Shown here piece by piece: positions 53,152-63,176 of a DNA stretch of 64,000 nucleotides. Within the stretch, counting starts at the first letter, position 1. Each line of letters starts with the position of its first letter. The notes below the pieces were generated by a model. It was given only the letters and a program-made list of their open reading frames with translations, made no database searches and had not been told where the DNA came from. The stretch is from Candidatus Nezhaarchaeales archaeon (lineage in GTDB: Archaea; Thermoproteota; Methanomethylicia; Nezhaarchaeales; WYZ-LMO8): contig JAWAKK010000002.1 of NCBI GenBank assembly GCA_038887515.1, forward strand, positions 160,001-224,000, read 5' to 3'. The position numbers and the translations under genes were made by a program.

Positions 53152-54969
53152 TTGTGCGGGATTTTTGGTTGTACTTCGCTTAAAGAGGGCGTCTCAAAGT
53201 TAATTTACGTTTCTCTGAAAAAGCTAGAGTATAGAGGGTACGATTCTGTAGGCTTGGCAACCACGTATGGCGGGTATATATTTTTAAAGAAGGATCAAGG
53301 AAAGATAGAAGAAGTGGACAACAAGCTCCGTCTCGATACGTTGCCGGGAAGGTGCGGAATAGGACATACTCGATGGGCTACTCACGGTGCGCCTTCGAAG
53401 GAAAACGCTCATCCGCTAACGGATTGCGAAGGTAAAATAGCAGTAGCTCATAACGGAATCATAGAGAACTGTCTAGAGTTACGTAAAAAGCTAGAGCTTG
53501 AAGGTCACAAGCTCCGCTCTAGAACCGATAGTGAAATTATAGCCCATCTGGTAGAGGAACTAATTGGTAAAGGGTTTACATTAAAAGAAGCTGTTAGGCA
53601 GGCGGCGCTAAGCCTAAGGGGCTCCTCGGCCTTCGTAATCATCTCTGCGCTATTGGAGGATACTATTGTCTGTGTCAGGATGGGAAGTCCCTTGGTTATA
53701 GGTCTCTCGCACGACTTCGTGTGTTGTTCATCCGACGTGCAGGCTCTCCCTCAAGAAGTGGAAGGTATCATAATAATGAATGAAGGGGAACTTGCAGTAC
53801 TTACGCCGAAGGCGGTAATTATCGAGGATCTTGAGTCTGGACGCTCACTACCGCTCAGGACCTTGACTAAAGAAAGCATAGTTTATTCAGCTGATAGAGG
53901 AAGCTTTGCCCACTACATGATTAAAGAAATACATGAAGAGCCTCAAGTTGCGTTAAACATCATTAATGCACCCCATCAATTTGTACAGAACCTAGCTAGC
54001 GAACTCCTAAAGTCTGATAGAGTGTACTTAATTGGCTGTGGAACATCATACCACGCTTGCATCTTCGGCTCTTACGTACTGCGCTTTATGGCCGACATCG
54101 ACGCCTACCCTATAGTGGCGTCGGAGTTTAATGGTAATTACATAAATTTAAGAGGCAAAACGGCCGTGCTAGCCATATCTCAGTCCGGAGAAACGGCCGA
54201 CGTATTGCAAGTCTTGAGGTTACTTCAAGGAAAAGACGTCAAGTTGCTAGCCTTAACTAATGTTATGGGGTCTTCGATAACAAGGCTTGTTTCATCATAT
54301 GTAGGGCTCTATGCAGGCCCCGAAATGGGAGTAGCCGCTACTAAGACCTTTCTAGCTCAACTATTAATGCTCACGAGGATAAGCTTAGAGGCCGCAAAGA
54401 TCAAGGGTCTAAATAATGACATCGTTTTAGGCGCTGAACGATTCTTGATTTCCTCGCCAAGGCTTATAGGGCGAGCCGTCAAGGTCAATGAACCAATAGC
54501 GATGAGCATATCAGCGAACCTATCTTTAAAGGATAGTGCCTTCTTCTTAGCAAGAGGCGTGAACATAGTCACAGCCCTTGAAGGAGCCTTAAAACTTAAA
54601 GAGATAAGCTATGTTCATGCTGAGGGCTATCCTGCCGGAGAGTCTAAGCATGGTCCAATAGCTCTCGTAGACAAGGGCTTTCCATGCATTTTCATTTGCC
54701 CCCGCGACGAGACTTACGGTAAGATTGTAGGCAATATAATGGAGATGAAAGCTAGGGGCGCCTTCACAATTTCATGCGTAGAAGAAGGTGATAAGGAGGT
54801 TAAGGAGATTTCAGATAAAATTTTCGTACTTCCCGAGGTAGACGTTAAAATATTAACACCCATACTTCACGTAATACCACTCCAACTTCTAGCTTATTAC
54901 GTTGCCGTTGCAAGAGGATATGATCCCGATAAGCCTCGAAACCTCGCTAAATCTGTTACAGTCCCTTAA
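53152..54969 (+). CDS. glmS: Glutamine-fructose-6-phosphate aminotransferase
   Basis: CGIFG, LEYRGYDS, GHTRWATHG, SQSGET and PRNLAKSVT. Confidence 0.96.
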   Translation: MCGIFGCTSLKEGVSKLIYVSLKKLEYRGYDSVGLATTYGGYIFLKKDQGKIEEVDNKLRLDTLPGRCGIGHTRWATHGAPSKENAHPLTDCEGKIAVAHNGIIENCLELRKKLELEGHKLRSRTDSEIIAHLVEELIGKGFTLKEAVRQAALSLRGSSAFVIISALLEDTIVCVRMGSPLVIGLSHDFVCCSSDVQALPQEVEGIIIMNEGELAVLTPKAVIIEDLESGRSLPLRTLTKESIVYSADRGSFAHYMIKEIHEEPQVALNIINAPHQFVQNLASELLKSDRVYLIGCGTSYHACIFGSYVLRFMADIDAYPIVASEFNGNYINLRGKTAVLAISQSGETADVLQVLRLLQGKDVKLLALTNVMGSSITRLVSSYVGLYAGPEMGVAATKTFLAQLLMLTRISLEAAKIKGLNNDIVLGAERFLISSPRLIGRAVKVNEPIAMSISANLSLKDSAFFLARGVNIVTALEGALKLKEISYVHAEGYPAGESKHGPIALVDKGFPCIFICPRDETYGKIVGNIMEMKARGAFTISCVEEGDKEVKEISDKIFVLPEVDVKILTPILHVIPLQLLAYYVAVARGYDPDKPRNLAKSVTVP

Positions 54970-55983
54970 GCCTTCTTAGATCTATTGTATCGAAGACCTC
55001 TGGACCGGTGCTGATTATTGTTATTGGAATCTTTAGTTCTTCTTCAACGTTCTCTATCCATTCCTTAGCTTCACGTGGTAGCTTATCGTATTCTCTAACT
55101 CGTGAAGCTCCGGGGAAGAGCGTGTCTATCCTGGTTATGGCTATTTGGGTTGCGCTGTTAGCCATGACAGCCCTTTTGGCTAATTCAAAGTTAAATGGTG
55201 CAACCCTCCTCTTCCTCCCAGTCACGGTTGCAACTTCTATGAGCCCTAGCCTTTGAGCCTCTTCTTCTGAAAGTTCGCCGGGTAGTGGTCCGCTTCCAAC
55301 CCTAGTCACATAAGATTTAAAGACTACAATAACCTCGTCGACCATCTTAGGACCTATACCCACCTCACTGCAGACGGCTGAAGCAGTTGTATCGCGACTT
55401 GTGACATAAGGATAAGTCCCGTGGTAAAGAGATAGATAGTACCCCTGGGTCCCCTCAAGGAGCACGTTATGACCTTGATCAAGTGCCCTCCATACTAGTG
55501 TAGGCACATCATCAAGATAATCCCTTAGTTCTCCTACATCGCGAGCGAGCCTAGCCACCCTCCTGACTCTATCAACTATTGCGGCTCCAACGCCTTGGCC
55601 CGTCGATCCTATCTTGGACATTAAGTGTTCATCTTCCCGCTCCCTCTTTACATGTTCTTCTTCGATTATGGAGGCTTGTGGGTCTATCTTCAACCTGTCT
55701 TTAGCTTTAGTGAGTTCAAGCTCCCTCATTAAAACGTCGATTCTCAAATTGGCTCCAGCCGCTATGCATAATTCGGCTCGAGGGTTTACAAACCCGCAAG
55801 GTATAATCCTCAACTTGTATTCCTTGTTATTGTACATTACAGTGTGGCCTGCGTTAACCGACCCTGTTCTAACAGCTACTCTGACGTCATCTTTAAGTGC
55901 CAAGTAGGCACATACTTTTCCTTCTAGGGGGCTAAAGCCTTTCCCTCGTCCCCGAAAAAGCCTCCTACAACTACCGTCAGCAA
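54956..55983 (-). CDS. purA: Adenylosuccinate synthetase, split by a 17-nt intron; join(55983..55941, 55923..54956), 336 aa
   Basis: Spliced N-terminus MLTVVVGGFFGDEGKGKVCAYLA restores the GDEGKG motif; also NAGHT, EGTQG, YPYVTSRDT and TVTGRKRR. Confidence 0.93.
55924..55940 (-). other. BHB-type mRNA intron in purA (AGGCUUUAGCCCCCUAG)
   Basis: AGGG/CCCU 4-bp helix, bulges AA^A and AG^A, inner hairpin GGC-UUUA-GCC; removal restores frame and motif. Confidence 0.88.
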
Positions 55984-57074
55984 GCCTCTAACCCCCAGAA
56001 TGGTCCTAAAACCTTATCGTAAACTTCTTTTATAACTCTTAGACCGCTTTTCTTCACACTCTCCGACGAGGTTGTGCTGCCTTCTTCAATTATAGGCAAG
56101 TCTATAAGGTACGCAATTATATCGTACACTCCTCTTGCAAGGCCCGGGCCATATCCTCCTTCAAGCACGAACATTATCTTTTTCGTCACACATTCATCCA
56201 TCATTTTCTTGACGAACTTGGCTACCTTTAGGAAGGAGTTTAATGAAAGGTTCATCGATGTTATCGGGTCATCCTTGTGGGCATCAAATCCGGCTGATAA
56301 CAATAACACTTCCGGTCTATACTCTCTAACGACCCTTTCTACAACTTTATCTAGCGCTACTTCGTAGAGGTCGTCACCTGTAAAAGGAGGTAGCGGAACA
56401 TTAATGTTAAAACCTTTCCCCTCTCCTTCACCGACTTCATCAACAAACCCTGTACCGGGATATGCTGTCCTTCCATCTTGATGCGTACTTATATAGAGAA
56501 CGTTATTGTAGCTGTAGAAAATCTCTTGAGTACCATTTCCGTGGTGACAATCAAAGTCGAAGATTGCTACCTTCTTAAACCCGTACTTGTCGAGTAAATG
56601 CGTTGCTGCTATAGCGATATTGTTAAATATGCAAAAACCTAATGTCGGAGCCCCTAAAGCTGCCCCACTCCTACCGGCGTGGTGTCCTGGAGGCCTCTCT
56701 AAGGTGAAGCAGAAGTCGAAGCCTTCTTCTATCAGTTTCTTGCATCCTAATACTGCTGAACCAGCAGCATAAAGTGCGACTTCAAAACTATCCTTTGATA
56801 CGGGCGTATCCGGATCAAGGTACCTCTTGCCATCTGTAATGGTTCTATCTACCCACTTAATGTAATCAATGTCGTGAACTGCAGCTACTTCTTCTATCGA
56901 TGCCTTAATTGCTCTTTCAACCTTAACTTTAGATAGTACCCCTCTCCCCTTTAGCTCATTAATGACTTCAATGAGCCTTTGCGGCCTCTCAGGATGATGA
57001 GGACCCGTGTCATGCCTCAAAAACACATCATCATATATTATGCAGAGTTTAGAAGTCATTAGTCGAAACACCAC
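55977..57074 (-). CDS. Histone deacetylase-family protein
   Basis: HPERPQR, RPPGHHA, GFCIFNN, DCHHGNGTQ and LEGGY. Confidence 0.93.
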   Translation of the reverse strand: MVFRLMTSKLCIIYDDVFLRHDTGPHHPERPQRLIEVINELKGRGVLSKVKVERAIKASIEEVAAVHDIDYIKWVDRTITDGKRYLDPDTPVSKDSFEVALYAAGSAVLGCKKLIEEGFDFCFTLERPPGHHAGRSGAALGAPTLGFCIFNNIAIAATHLLDKYGFKKVAIFDFDCHHGNGTQEIFYSYNNVLYISTHQDGRTAYPGTGFVDEVGEGEGKGFNINVPLPPFTGDDLYEVALDKVVERVVREYRPEVLLLSAGFDAHKDDPITSMNLSLNSFLKVAKFVKKMMDECVTKKIMFVLEGGYGPGLARGVYDIIAYLIDLPIIEEGSTTSSESVKKSGLRVIKEVYDKVLGPFWGLEAC

Positions 57075-61486: not shown

Positions 61487-63176
61487 ATGAAATACATTTT
61501 CATTACAGGAGGTGTTTTATCAAGCGTAGGTAAGGGGGCCGTGACTGCTTCGATAGGCAAGATGCTCCAGGTTAGAGGCTTTTCTGTAACGGCAATAAAG
61601 ATAGACCCATAGGCCTTAGGGGCCGGGTAAACATAAACGTTGATGCTGGAACAATGAACCCATAGGCTCTGAGCTGGAGGCTTAGAGCCGGGTATATATG
61701 CATGGCGAGGTCTTCGTGACGGAGGATGGCGGCGAGGTAGACCTAGATCTCGGTCACTATGAGCGTTTTCTCGATATAGACCTATCAAAGGACAACAACA
61801 TTACGACTGGACAAGTGTACATGGTGGTCATAGAGGCCGAGAGGAGGGGGAAGTACCTCGGCAAGTGCGTACAAATAATACCTCACATAACCGACGAGGT
61901 GAAGAGGAGGATAAGGTTAGTAGCTCAGAAGAGCAACGTGGACGTGACGCTCGTAGAATGTGGAGGCACAACGGGGGACATAGAGGGACTCCCCTTCCTT
62001 GAGGCTATAAGGCAAATGAGACTTGAAGAGGGCTTTTCGAACACGCTCTTTGTTCATGTAGCCTTAGTTCCAATATTGGAAGTAACTGGAGAATTTAAGA
62101 CGAAACCTCTACAACACAGCGTCCAAGAGCTTAGACGCATAGGTATACAGCCCGACATCGTAGTGGCAAGGTGTAAGCAGCCGCTAGACGATGAAGCCAA
62201 GAAGAAAATAGCGCTTTACAGCAACGTCCCTGAAGAGGCGGTGTTCACGTCTTACGATGTGGACTGCATATACGAGCTTCCAATAATACTTGATGGACAG
62301 GGAATGGGCGCTTACATATGTAAGCGGCTTACGCTAGATGGATGTAAAGCCGACTGGTCTTCGTGGAGGGAGATAGTTGAGAGGTATAGAAGTTTTAAGT
62401 ACGAAGTCGAAGTATGCATGTGCGGTAAGTACACGAAGCTAAAGGACTCTTACATAAGCATAATAGAGGCCTTAAAGCATGCGGGCGCAGCCCTTGAAAC
62501 TAAGGTTAACATGACATGGCTCGAGGCAACAACGTTCGAACAAGGAGAGGGCATACCTCGAGAGTTTCAGGATATTTTGAGTTCCTGTGATGGCATAATA
62601 GTACTGCCGGGCTTTGGGGCCCGTGGGGCAGAAGGTAAGATTAAGGTCATCAGATACGCAAGGGAAAACAAGGTACCGTTCCTGGGCATATGCTTTGGAA
62701 TGCAACTGGCAATTGTAGAGTTTGCACGAAACGTTGTAGGTCTCAAAGAAGCAAACACAACAGAACTTGATCCGTCAACGTACCACCCGGTTGTTGACCT
62801 CCTACCGGAACAGCACTACGTTAAGGAAGTAGGTGGTACTATGAGACTCGGGGCTCAGGCAACCGTGCTTGAACCCGGAACGAAAGTCTACGAGCTTTAT
62901 GGAAGGCCGATAATATTTGAAAGGCATAGGCATAGGTACGAGGTCAACCCGACCTACTGGTCTGTACTTCAAAGCCACGGTTTGGTCTTCTCCGGATATA
63001 GCATTGATAAACGGAGGGTGGAGTTCATAGAGCTCAGGGACCACCCATTCTTTGTTGCAACTCAATCGCACCCAGAGTTCAAGTCGAGGCCCAATAGACC
63101 CTCACCCATATATTACGGCTTCGTGAAGGCCTGCCTCGAGCATAGGCTTAAGAGATTATCAGCTCCGAAATGCTGA
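61487..63176 (+). CDS. pyrG: CTP synthase, split by two introns; join(61487..61610, 61631..61663, 61696..63176), 545 aa
   Basis: Spliced product reads [17 protein letters not shown]...[27 protein letters not shown]; also [16 protein letters not shown] and HPEF. Confidence 0.95.
61611..61630 (+). other. BHB-type mRNA intron 1 in pyrG (AGGCCUUAGGGGCCGGGUAA)
   Basis: ACCC/GGGU helix, bulges AU^A and AA^A, inner hairpin GGCC-UUAGG-GGCC. Confidence 0.9.
61664..61695 (+). other. BHB-type mRNA intron 2 in pyrG (AGGCUCUGAGCUGGAGGCUUAGAGCCGGGUAU)
   Basis: ACCC/GGGU helix, bulges AU^A and AU^A, 10-bp inner stem GGCUCUGAGC/GCUUAGAGCC. Confidence 0.92.

What the first reader, a model, noticed from the sequence alone, without database searches (positions are those of the whole stretch)
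55924..55940. 17-nt BHB-like intron inside the GDEGKG P-loop of purA
Seen (minus strand): GAC G-AGGG-AA^A-GGC-UUUA-GCC-CCCU-AG^A-AGGAAAAG. The exon's AGGG pairs with the intron's CCCU, and each strand has a 3-nt bulge. Cutting after the second nucleotide of each bulge (the known EndA rule) gives GAC GAG GGA AAA GGA AAA GUA = DEGKGKV and a 336 aa PurA from TTG 55983. The unspliced RNA reads GK-ALAP-stop. The outer helix is displaced (CUUUUUC/GGAAAAG), so the motif is a relaxed BHL-like form. The ORF track calls only a truncated protein lacking the P-loop.
Basis: partly seen in the sequence, partly recalled or inferred. Interest (0 to 1): 0.9.

Follow-up and report, generated by a model that had tools for sequence, protein, structure and literature searches.

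The report
Spliced mini-intron inside archaeal purA gene
A 17-base insert that breaks the purine-synthesis gene purA of a hot-spring archaeon looks like a tRNA-type intron cut out of the messenger RNA, a kind of intron so far confirmed in the coding region of only one other archaeal gene.

Summary
On the minus strand, 17 nt (55940..55924) split the GDEGK|GK P-loop codons of the genome's only purA. Removing them gives a 336-aa open frame.

It is neither an artefact nor a pseudogene. All 10 genomes of the family, 24 of 32 genomes of a methanogen family in another order, a Bathyarchaeia clade and three further families carry an insert at the same spot. Lengths run from 15 to 30 nt.

All 39 distinct sequences parsed share one architecture: a 4-bp helix between exon 1 and the insert's 3' end, an AAA bulge, a hairpin, and an A-N-A bulge. 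Cutting after the second nucleotide of each bulge restores GDEGKGK in every case. The helices covary.

The genome encodes two EndA paralogs, one carrying the loop reported to widen specificity, plus RtcB.

Best reading, about 0.9: a relaxed bulge-helix-bulge pre-mRNA intron.

There is no RNA evidence: 0 reads laid.

The same genome shows similar inserts in cbf5, pyrG (two, in this window) and aIF2-gamma.

The parts
55941..55983 (-). purA exon 1: TTG start, 14 codons plus the first base of the Lys codon (..VVVGGFFGDEG-K)
   Evidence: The start position matches ATG and GTG starts in relatives L008 and L009. In the family alignment the only variable columns in the first 24 are 1, 4, 7, 10, 13, 16 and 19, which are third codon positions.
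55924..55940 (-). 17-nt intron: one bulge base, a GGC-UUUA-GCC hairpin (h'), CCCU (3' strand of the central helix) and two bulge bases. The 5' cut falls between 55941 and 55940, the 3' cut between 55924 and 55923.
   Evidence: All 10 family genomes have the same architecture, with lengths of 16, 17 or 18 nt.
55943..55946 (-). Exon strand of the central 4-bp helix (AGGG, from the Glu-Gly codons). It pairs with 55926-55929.
   Evidence: 97.5% of cells paired in the family. In the other lineages the first pair covaries: GC 20, AU 7, GU 2.
54956..55923 (-). purA exon 2, including the stop codon: the last two bases of the Lys codon, then GKVCAYLALKDD... to the end
   Evidence: Pfam Adenylsucc_synt E 2.4e-69. 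It is the only purA match in the genome.
55977..57074 (-). Upstream deacetylase-family gene. Its last codons and TGA stop overlap the purA TTG start.
   Evidence: Pfam Hist_deacetyl, E 3.4e-87.
61611..61630 (+). Context, not part of purA: first predicted intron of pyrG (20 nt, after DP^Y). Helix ACCC/GGGU, bulges AUA and AAA.
61664..61695 (+). Context, not part of purA: second predicted intron of pyrG (32 nt, after NP^Y). Helix ACCC/GGGU, bulges AUA and AUA, 11-bp hairpin.
   Evidence: Removing both inserts gives a continuous 545-aa CTP synthase.

Best explanation
The 17 nt are a bulge-helix-bulge (relaxed HBh'/BHL) intron in the purA pre-mRNA.

Proposed mechanism:
1. In the transcript, the exon bases AGGG (Glu-Gly codons) pair with CCCU near the 3' end of the insert. 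A small hairpin forms inside the insert. The two splice sites then lie in 3-nt bulges (AAA and AGA) on opposite sides of the 4-bp helix.
2. The heteromeric splicing endonuclease EndA cuts after the second nucleotide of each bulge.
3. RtcB joins the exons.
4. The mature mRNA encodes a 336-aa adenylosuccinate synthetase with an intact GDEGKGK phosphate-binding loop.
5. Unspliced mRNA yields only a 19-residue peptide.

Shown here: the anatomy, its conservation and covariation, frame restoration by one rule, and the presence of the enzymes. Inferred: the cleavage and ligation themselves.
For: 1. This is the only purA in a 94%-complete genome.

2. An insert sits at the same spot in many genomes:
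- all 10 genomes of family f1, at 16, 17 or 18 nt;
- 24 of 32 genomes of family f5, at 18, 22, 28 or 30 nt. Two are intact and six gave no readable locus;
- 7 of 26 readable loci around a Bathyarchaeia genome, at 23 nt;
- 6 genomes of three further families in a 401-genome phylum sample.

3. All 39 distinct sequences parse as helix-4 / AAA / hairpin of 3-9 bp / CCCY / A-N-A. The cut after the second bulge nucleotide restores GDEGKGK and a frame open for at least 100 codons in 39 of 39, although the lengths fall in all three frame classes.

4. Covariation in 29 non-f1 sequences: 98.0% of cells are paired against 83.4% in shuffles (0 of 500 reach it). The covariation score is 0.432 against 0.158 (0 of 500). 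Sliding the partners by 1-3 columns leaves at most 68% paired. One helix pair covaries between an exon Glu third base and the intron. RNAalifold recovers both helices unaided.

5. Exon 1 varies only at third codon positions.

6. Enzymes: two EndA paralogs. One aligns without gaps to the A. pernix catalytic subunit 3P1Z_B through its Crenarchaea-specific loop, with Lys at the K44 position (PMC3241643, passages read). RtcB is present.

7. The same rule applied to cbf5 of this genome rebuilds the catalytic GGTLDP motif. cbf5 is the one gene where archaeal pre-mRNA splicing has been confirmed (PMC2738675, abstract, sections 8-9 and reference list read).

8. At 70 C the BHB-containing fold is the minimum-energy structure of this sequence.

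9. The two intron-less f5 genes nest inside intron-bearing clades, as expected for precise intron loss.
Against: - No transcript evidence. The two metatranscriptome runs from the same study gave 0 reads on 6 kb, with about 3% of each run read, so nothing can be concluded from them.
- There is no outer exon-exon helix directly next to the central helix, so the strict hBHBh' form is not met. The 3' site is closed on one side only.
- At 37 C the BHB is not the minimum-energy fold of this sequence (-17.8 against -19.1 kcal/mol). The fold is no better than shuffles (z 0.06).
- Within family f1 alone the helices hardly vary. That alignment does not exceed its shuffles (298 of 500) and shows one compensatory pair.
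- The bare motif occurs 649 times in the genome.
- The intron lies 43 nt from a start codon that overlaps the upstream gene's stop, so ribosomes could compete with folding.
Confidence: 0.9

Rival explanations
1. Programmed translational bypass. The ribosome hops over the hairpin-containing insert, as in phage T4 gene 60 or yeast mitochondrial byps elements, and the mRNA is never spliced.
For: There is a hairpin, and a stop codon lies soon after the take-off region: unspliced frames stop 1-26 codons after GGFFGDEGK in 39 of 39 sequences. Insert lengths are free, as would also be expected for bypass.
Against: Matched take-off and landing codons are missing. In the window the codon before the resumed GGA is GAA, while the take-off codon would be AAG. 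In f5 it is AGA against AAA (read). What is conserved is a 4-bp exon-intron helix with two 3-nt bulges in fixed register. That is the endonuclease's motif and has no role in bypass. Bypass is not known in archaea (recalled, not searched).
Confidence: 0.03
2. Decaying or inactive gene. purA is a pseudogene broken by an insertion, and the organisms salvage adenine nucleotides.
For: Annotation pipelines would read a frameshift or internal stop. The genomes are small (about 1-1.6 Mb).
Against: The break is at the same place in dozens of species across at least six family-level lineages. Both exons are under purifying selection: exon 1 varies only at third codon positions, and exon 2 stays open and 50-86% identical. 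Every length variant keeps a precise way back to GDEGKGK. The hairpin accumulates compensatory changes.
Confidence: 0.02
3. Two-piece or N-terminally truncated enzyme. Translation restarts downstream of the insert and gives a PurA without the first half of the P-loop, or the 19-residue peptide complements it.
For: In the window a TTG at 55903 gives a 315-aa ORF.
Against: The first in-frame start codon in exon 2 lies anywhere from 0 to 98 codons downstream in the 39 sequences and is not conserved. The GDEGKGK loop would be cut in two; it is invariant in the uninterrupted relatives read, apart from a few GDTGKGK and GDEGKGG variants. Exon 1 conservation would have no reason.
Confidence: 0.02
4. 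Assembly or sequencing artefact in this metagenome-assembled genome.
For: The window comes from a metagenome bin. The one DNA run that holds it may be its own source.
Against: In that run the contig carries the 17 nt at word depth 20 with no indel. The insert recurs in independent assemblies from other records, including genomes in one or two contigs (G005, G008, G016, G019).
Confidence: 0.005

Closest known systems
cbf5 pre-mRNA intron of Desulfurococcales and Sulfolobales (Watanabe 2002; Yokobori 2009, PMC2738675)
   Same: A small intron inside a protein-coding frame, with an unconventional BHB at the exon-intron borders. The cut lies between the 2nd and 3rd bulge residues. It is linked to hetero-oligomeric EndA and shows lineage-specific loss (PMC2738675 abstract and section 8 read). 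This genome's own cbf5 shows such an insert too.
   Different: A different gene (purA) and a different site (the phosphate-binding loop). The lineages differ: the Methanomethylicia-class families f1 and f5, a Bathyarchaeia clade, and three more families. The intron is very short (15-30 nt). No cDNA confirmation exists.
Non-canonical tRNA mini-introns with relaxed HBh'/BHL motifs in Crenarchaeota/Thermoproteales (Marck and Grosjean 2003, cited in PMC4090602; PMC3241643)
   Same: The same motif grammar, the same enzyme type ((alpha-beta)2 EndA with the specific loop) and similar sizes. ARAGORN predicts introns in 18 of this genome's 46 tRNA genes, 7 of them 11-18 nt long.
   Different: The substrate is an mRNA. 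The exon half of the helix is made of codons, so it is constrained by the protein.
BHB intron in the 5' UTR of Haloferax volcanii HVO_1309 (PMC7714728)
   Same: An mRNA processed by the tRNA splicing endonuclease (passages read).
   Different: That one lies in an untranslated leader. It does not interrupt a reading frame.
HAC1/XBP1 unconventional mRNA splicing by IRE1 and tRNA ligase/RtcB in eukaryotes (recalled, no call)
   Same: A short frame-changing intron is removed from an mRNA by an endonuclease plus RtcB-type ligation, without a spliceosome.
   Different: A different endonuclease and motif, and a regulated stress response. No regulation is shown here.
Translational bypass of T4 gene 60 (recalled, no call)
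   Same: A short non-coding gap with a hairpin and a nearby stop inside a reading frame.
   Different: It needs matched take-off and landing codons, which are not present here. It has no exon-intron helix with two bulges.

Membership tests
Archaeal BHB-type intron (EndA substrate) | Central 4-bp helix flanked by two 3-nt bulges on opposite strands | tested here: met
   Found in 39 of 39 distinct sequences; 38 have all four pairs and one has an A.C. In the window: AGGG/CCCU with bulges AAA and AGA.
Archaeal BHB-type intron (EndA substrate) | Strict hBHBh' form: helices of at least 2 bp directly outside both bulges | tested here: not met
   The inner helix h' is present (3-9 bp). No exon-exon pair adjoins the central helix in any lineage (read). 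The displaced helix is 80% paired with no compensatory change. This makes it the relaxed HBh'/BHL form, which is known for crenarchaeal substrates (PMC4090602 and PMC3241643, passages read).
Archaeal BHB-type intron (EndA substrate) | Cleavage between the 2nd and 3rd bulge nucleotides gives the correct exon junction | tested here: met
   In silico only. The rule restores GDEGKGK and an open frame in 39 of 39 sequences across seven lengths. The rule itself is quoted from PMC2738675 section 8.
Archaeal BHB-type intron (EndA substrate) | Helices supported by compensatory change | tested here: met
   6 of 9 pairs show changes on both sides, and 0 of 500 shuffles reach the score. One search gives an independent RNAalifold prediction. 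Support is weak within family f1 alone.
Archaeal BHB-type intron (EndA substrate) | Host encodes a broad-specificity EndA and an RNA ligase | tested here: met
   Two PF01974 genes and one RtcB gene. The alpha-like paralog matches 3P1Z_B at E 2.6e-48, with Lys aligned to K44 of the specific loop. The role of the second paralog as beta subunit was not checked residue by residue.
Archaeal BHB-type intron (EndA substrate) | Excision seen in RNA: spliced junction, circular or linear intron | not testable with these tools
   The only RNA runs offered gave 0 laid reads.
Programmed translational bypass | Matching take-off and landing codons flanking the gap | tested here: not met
   Read: AAG against GAA in the window, AAA against AGA in f5.

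The most novel reading that the evidence does not exclude
These mini-introns may be a mobile family that settles wherever an mRNA offers the exon half of its own splice motif.

The same helix, bulge and flank (GGGG-AAA-hairpin-CCCY-ARA-GG) interrupts the Gly-Lys-Gly codons of two different nucleotide-binding loops. One is in purA (f5, the Bathyarchaeia clade, f48; shifted by one base in f1, f22 and f43). The other is in pyrG (all 10 loci read from families f4, f7 and f8). The two pyrG introns of this genome likewise share ACCC-AUA.

If this is true, BHB introns spread by site-specific insertion into conserved codon strings, perhaps by reverse splicing. They might also tie expression of nucleotide-synthesis and translation genes (purA, pyrG, aIF2-gamma, cbf5) to the activity of the tRNA-splicing machinery.

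In-frame variants always carry an in-frame stop. That holds for 12 of 12 distinct ones, plus two read by eye. This hints at selection against translating unspliced mRNA.
Probability: 0.25. Interest if true: 0.92.

Novelty: new member of a known kind. Interest (0 to 1): 0.85.

Why it matters
Archaeal splicing of protein-coding messages by the tRNA endonuclease has rested on one gene, cbf5, since 2002. PMC7714728, published in 2020, still names it as the only coding example besides one 5' UTR (passages read).

A second gene would show that this is a recurrent way of interrupting genes, not a curiosity. Here it appears in purA across several thermoproteotal lineages, including methanogen families, with companions in pyrG, aIF2-gamma and cbf5 in the same genome.

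There is also a practical consequence. Gene callers report purA, pyrG and aIF2-gamma of these organisms as truncated or broken. That would wrongly suggest purine or pyrimidine auxotrophy, distort metabolic reconstructions, and may lower completeness estimates for uncultured archaea.

The finding makes gain, loss and possible mobility of such introns testable with many natural variants. It also offers an archaeal counterpart to HAC1/XBP1-type non-spliceosomal mRNA splicing.

Tried and rejected
RNA evidence. The look-up of sequencing runs listed no RNA holder. It did list two metatranscriptome runs from the same study as the DNA holder. Laying them on 6 kb gave 0 reads in both, so this is no test.

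Rfam. There is no family match at the locus at E up to 1. In the whole window only four tRNAs reach gathering scores.

Repeated element. A search of the genome for further copies with the purA-type helix (RGGG ... CCCY) found 8 loose matches, none with the A-N-A 3' bulge. That script wrongly dropped purA itself because it over-extended the hairpin. The later scan fixed this.

First genome-wide scan. Without a bulge constraint it gave 3139 ORF-joining candidates and was useless as such. With A-N-A bulges it gave 91. I judged four convincing by eye: purA, cbf5, aIF2-gamma and the second pyrG intron. Two I recognised as false, because the supposed intron is real coding sequence of a glycyl-tRNA synthetase and of an ATPase proteolipid. 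One is a gene junction after rpoB. I did not follow up the rest.

Alignments. MAFFT of all 39 sequences together put family f1 one column out of register. I therefore analysed f1 and the others separately.

Rejected models. Frameshifting cannot work, because 15-, 18-, 21- and 30-nt inserts are in frame yet carry stops. Stop read-through would put 5-10 residues into the P-loop. Group I or group II introns are excluded by size.

Literature. Six full-text searches found no paper that describes a purA intron, nor did one on Methanomethylicia plus intron. Subscription journals and supplementary files were not visible, so a mention there cannot be excluded.

I did not use the big protein searches, structure prediction or complex prediction, because no open question needed them.

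Full report
THE OBSERVATION

On the minus strand of the window a TTG at 55983 opens a frame that reads L-L-T-V-V-V-G-G-F-F-G-D-E-G-K, then A-L-A-P and a TAG stop. Downstream, in another frame, lies a 315-aa ORF (54956..55903). It matches Pfam Adenylsucc_synt at E 2.4e-69 but lacks the N-terminal phosphate-binding loop.

The 17 nt at 55940..55924 lie inside the Lys codon of GDEGK|GK. Joining 55983-55941 to 55923-54956 in a script gives 336 codons with one terminal stop. The unspliced frame gives 19 residues.

Exon AGGG pairs with insert CCCU. GGC pairs with GCC around a UUUA loop. The bulges are AAA and AGA. The start codon overlaps the stop of an upstream deacetylase-family gene.

The window is G000:C2:160001-224000 of a 1.29-Mb, 9-contig genome that is 94% complete. 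That genome holds one purA match only.

IS IT MORE THAN CHANCE?

The motif alone is not. A scan of the whole genome for helix-4 / A-N-A / hairpin / helix-4 / A-N-A found 649 instances, and 91 of them could join two open frames. The fold of this one sequence is no better than shuffles (z 0.06). At 37 C the minimum-energy structure is a competing fold, at -19.1 against -17.8 kcal/mol for the BHB. At 70 C the BHB-containing fold is the minimum. The weight of the case lies in comparison with relatives.

COMPARISON WITH RELATIVES

Titles of the nearest named records place the organism among Candidatus Nezhaarchaeota/Nezhaarchaeales, with PurA 78-85% identical. The tool's class holds 62 genomes.

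- Of 41 relatives searched, 39 have purA. I read 30 loci: 13 are interrupted at this spot and 17 read GDEGKGK without a break.
- All 10 genomes of the window's family f1 (four genera) carry an insert of 16, 17 or 18 nt.
- In family f5, which belongs to another order, 24 of 32 genomes carry one: 18 nt in 3, 22 nt in 2, 28 nt in 10 and 30 nt in 9. Two are intact (G022, G036) and six gave no readable locus.
- Families f2, f3, f4, f6, f7, f8 and f9 match the uninterrupted pattern.
- Among 80 loci from named genomes across archaea, 7 are interrupted: six Nezhaarchaeales and one Bathyarchaeia. The other 73 are continuous. They include the 15 that my first regular expression missed and that I read by eye.
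- Around that Bathyarchaeia genome, 7 of 26 readable loci carry a 23-nt insert and 19 do not.
- A pattern scan of 401 genomes of the phylum hit 43. Four of these are intact genes matched by chance. The remaining 39 are f1 (10 of 10), f5 (23 of 32) and six genomes of three further families, with 15-22 nt. The backwards control pattern hit 2 genomes.

ANATOMY ACROSS THE 39 DISTINCT SEQUENCES

Every one parses in the same way:
- four exon bases ((A/G)GGG from the Glu-Gly codons);
- an AAA bulge;
- a hairpin of 3-9 bp;
- CCC(C/U), pairing back to the exon;
- an A-N-A bulge.

Cutting after the second nucleotide of each bulge restores GDEGKGK and a frame open for at least 100 codons in 39 of 39. This holds although the lengths 16, 17, 18, 22, 23, 28 and 30 fall in all three frame classes. 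That cutting rule is the one reported for cbf5 introns (PMC2738675, section 8 read).

Without excision, the frame stops 1-26 codons after GGFFGDEGK in 39 of 39. The 12 distinct in-frame inserts all contain an in-frame TAG (read). The nine distinct 28-nt ones have none in the hairpin loop.

COVARIATION

For the 29 non-f1 sequences:
- 98.0% of cells pair, against 83.4% in shuffles (0 of 500 reach it).
- The covariation score is 0.432 against 0.158 (0 of 500).
- Sliding the partners by 1-3 columns leaves at most 68% paired.
- All five hairpin pairs counted show changes on both sides.
- The outermost pair of the exon-intron helix switches between G-C (20), A-U (7) and G-U (2). A synonymous Glu third base therefore covaries with the intron.

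RNAalifold predicts the same two helices unaided.

Within f1 alone the helices are nearly invariant, so that alignment does not beat its shuffles (298 of 500). It shows one C-G to U-A change with a U.G intermediate.

Two of its pairs are broken in 5 and 6 of 10 sequences, and it shows no compensatory change. Much of its pairing potential follows from Phe-Phe codons facing Gly-Lys codons. No exon-exon pair adjoins the central helix in any lineage. The motif is therefore the relaxed HBh'/BHL form, not the strict hBHBh' form.

Exon 1 varies only at third codon positions in f1, as expected for translated sequence.

THE MACHINERY

The genome has two EndA-family genes and one RtcB gene.

One EndA paralog matches the catalytic subunit of the A. 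pernix heterotetramer (3P1Z_B) at E 2.6e-48. It aligns without gaps through the Crenarchaea-specific loop, with Lys and Lys opposite K44 and R46. That loop, and K44 in particular, were shown to confer cleavage of non-canonical and BHL substrates (PMC3241643, abstract and passages read).

The second paralog is divergent. Its best hit is 5X89_A, and its match to the A. pernix structural subunit is weak. I did not verify its role.

ARAGORN predicts introns in 18 of the 46 tRNA genes, 7 of them 11-18 nt long. These predictions are unverified.

RELATED INSERTS IN THE SAME GENOME

cbf5 (C2:333915-333935, outside the window) has a 21-nt in-frame insert with a TAA inside the catalytic motif. RNAfold gives a near-canonical BHB. 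The same cutting rule rebuilds GGTLDPRVTG, creating the Asp codon across the junction.

pyrG lies in this window on the plus strand and has two inserts, at 61611-61630 and 61664-61695. Removing both gives a continuous 545-aa CTP synthase. Pfam places the flanking pieces at profile positions 1-40 and 54-265. All 10 f1 genomes keep both inserts, with varying hairpins.

aIF2-gamma (C2:24144-24175) has a 32-nt insert with an 11-bp hairpin between DCPGHE and MLMATML. Pfam GTP_EFTU covers profile positions 4-80 on one piece and 84-187 on the other.

All ten bulges in these five introns are A-N-A.

In families f4, f7 and f8, which lack the purA insert, all 10 pyrG loci read carry a different insert in the SSVGK|G codons. 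It has the same GGGG-AAA ... CCCY-ARA-GG frame as the f5 purA intron.

HISTORY

On a FastTree of 134 exon-2 proteins, the insert needs at least 5 state changes; well-supported branches force 4. Label shuffles average 34.6 changes, and none of 500 is as low.
- f1 is one clade, with all 10 rows carrying the insert.
- f5 is one clade of 25 rows. The two intron-less genes are nested inside it, which suggests precise loss as described for cbf5.
- The Bathyarchaeia carriers form a separate clade far away, next to 8 intron-less sisters.
- f1 PurA groups with f5, f6 and Thermoprotei sequences, not with f2 and f3 of its own order. This leaves room for transfer of the gene together with its intron.

The tree is a quick one and unrooted. 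I draw no order of events from it.

ALTERNATIVES

- Bypass lacks matched take-off and landing codons and would not need an exon-intron helix.
- A pseudogene would not keep both exons under selection, nor keep a precise route back to the motif in every length variant.
- A restart product lacks a conserved start (0-98 codons downstream) and would lack half of the P-loop.
- An artefact is excluded by the independent assemblies.

WHAT IS KNOWN

A 2020 paper states that, besides a Haloferax 5' UTR, the only mRNA BHB intron reported is cbf5 (PMC7714728, passages read). Yokobori 2009 notes that no gene other than cbf5 had been confirmed, and that cbf5 introns were known only in Desulfurococcales and Sulfolobales (PMC2738675, sections 8-9 read).

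My searches found no mention of a purA intron. Rfam has nothing at the locus. Papers outside the held library and supplementary files could not be checked.

VERDICT

This is a relaxed BHB pre-mRNA intron, a new member of a kind known from a single gene. It is conserved across several thermoproteotal lineages and accompanied by similar introns in other essential genes. Splicing itself remains to be shown in RNA.

Noticed in passing
window 61611-61630 and 61664-61695 (+): pyrG (CTP synthase) is interrupted twice, after DP^Y and NP^Y, by 20-nt and 32-nt BHB-like inserts. Both use exon ACCC, bulge AUA and intron GGGU. Removing both gives a continuous 545-aa protein. All 10 genomes of the family keep both inserts, with varying hairpins.
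   Followed up: partly
G000:C2:333915-333935 (+), outside the window; locus L178: cbf5 carries a 21-nt in-frame insert with a TAA in the catalytic GGTLDP motif, with a near-canonical BHB. The cutting rule rebuilds the Asp codon. cbf5 introns were reported only for Desulfurococcales and Sulfolobales (PMC2738675), so this would widen that range.
   Followed up: partly
G000:C2:24144-24175 (+), outside the window; L210:845-876: aIF2-gamma is split between DCPGHE and MLMATML by a 32-nt insert: helix CACG/CGUG, bulges AGA and AUA, 11-bp hairpin. Pfam GTP_EFTU covers profile positions 4-80 on one piece and 84-187 on the other. Relatives were not examined.
   Followed up: partly
loci L191-L194, L199-L204 (pyrG of families f4, f7, f8): All 10 loci read carry an insert in the SSVGK^G codons of pyrG. 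It has the same frame as the f5 purA intron (GGGG, AAA bulge, hairpin, CCCY, ARA bulge, GG). These families lack the purA insert. This suggests either insertion that prefers the string GGGGAAAGG or convergent evolution.
   Followed up: partly
phylum sample, genomes G134, G148, G197 (f22), G260 (f43), G328, G418 (f48): Three further families show purA P-loop inserts of 15-22 nt with the same architecture. The two in-frame ones (15 and 21 nt) again hold an in-frame TAG, read by eye from the matched strings. No loci were fetched.
   Followed up: no
loci L163/L177 (G079) and L152/L176 (G088): Two Bathyarchaeia bins each hold two purA copies. In G079 one copy has the insert and one does not. This may be a mixed bin or a real duplication.
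   Followed up: no
window 55938-55983, run X1 record 8: A 285-nt contig at word depth 158 matches exon 1 with 6 differences. It then continues as an uninterrupted P-loop, so a more abundant organism in the same sample has an intron-less purA.
   Followed up: no
whole genome G000: ARAGORN predicts introns of 5-80 nt in 18 of 46 tRNA genes, several of them 11-18 nt long. Some predictions look doubtful, such as the 5-nt introns and the odd anticodons aaa and aga.
   Followed up: no
window 55981-55983 / 55977-55979 (-): The purA TTG start overlaps the last codons and the TGA stop of the upstream deacetylase-family gene. This suggests coupled translation only 43 nt ahead of the intron.
   Followed up: no
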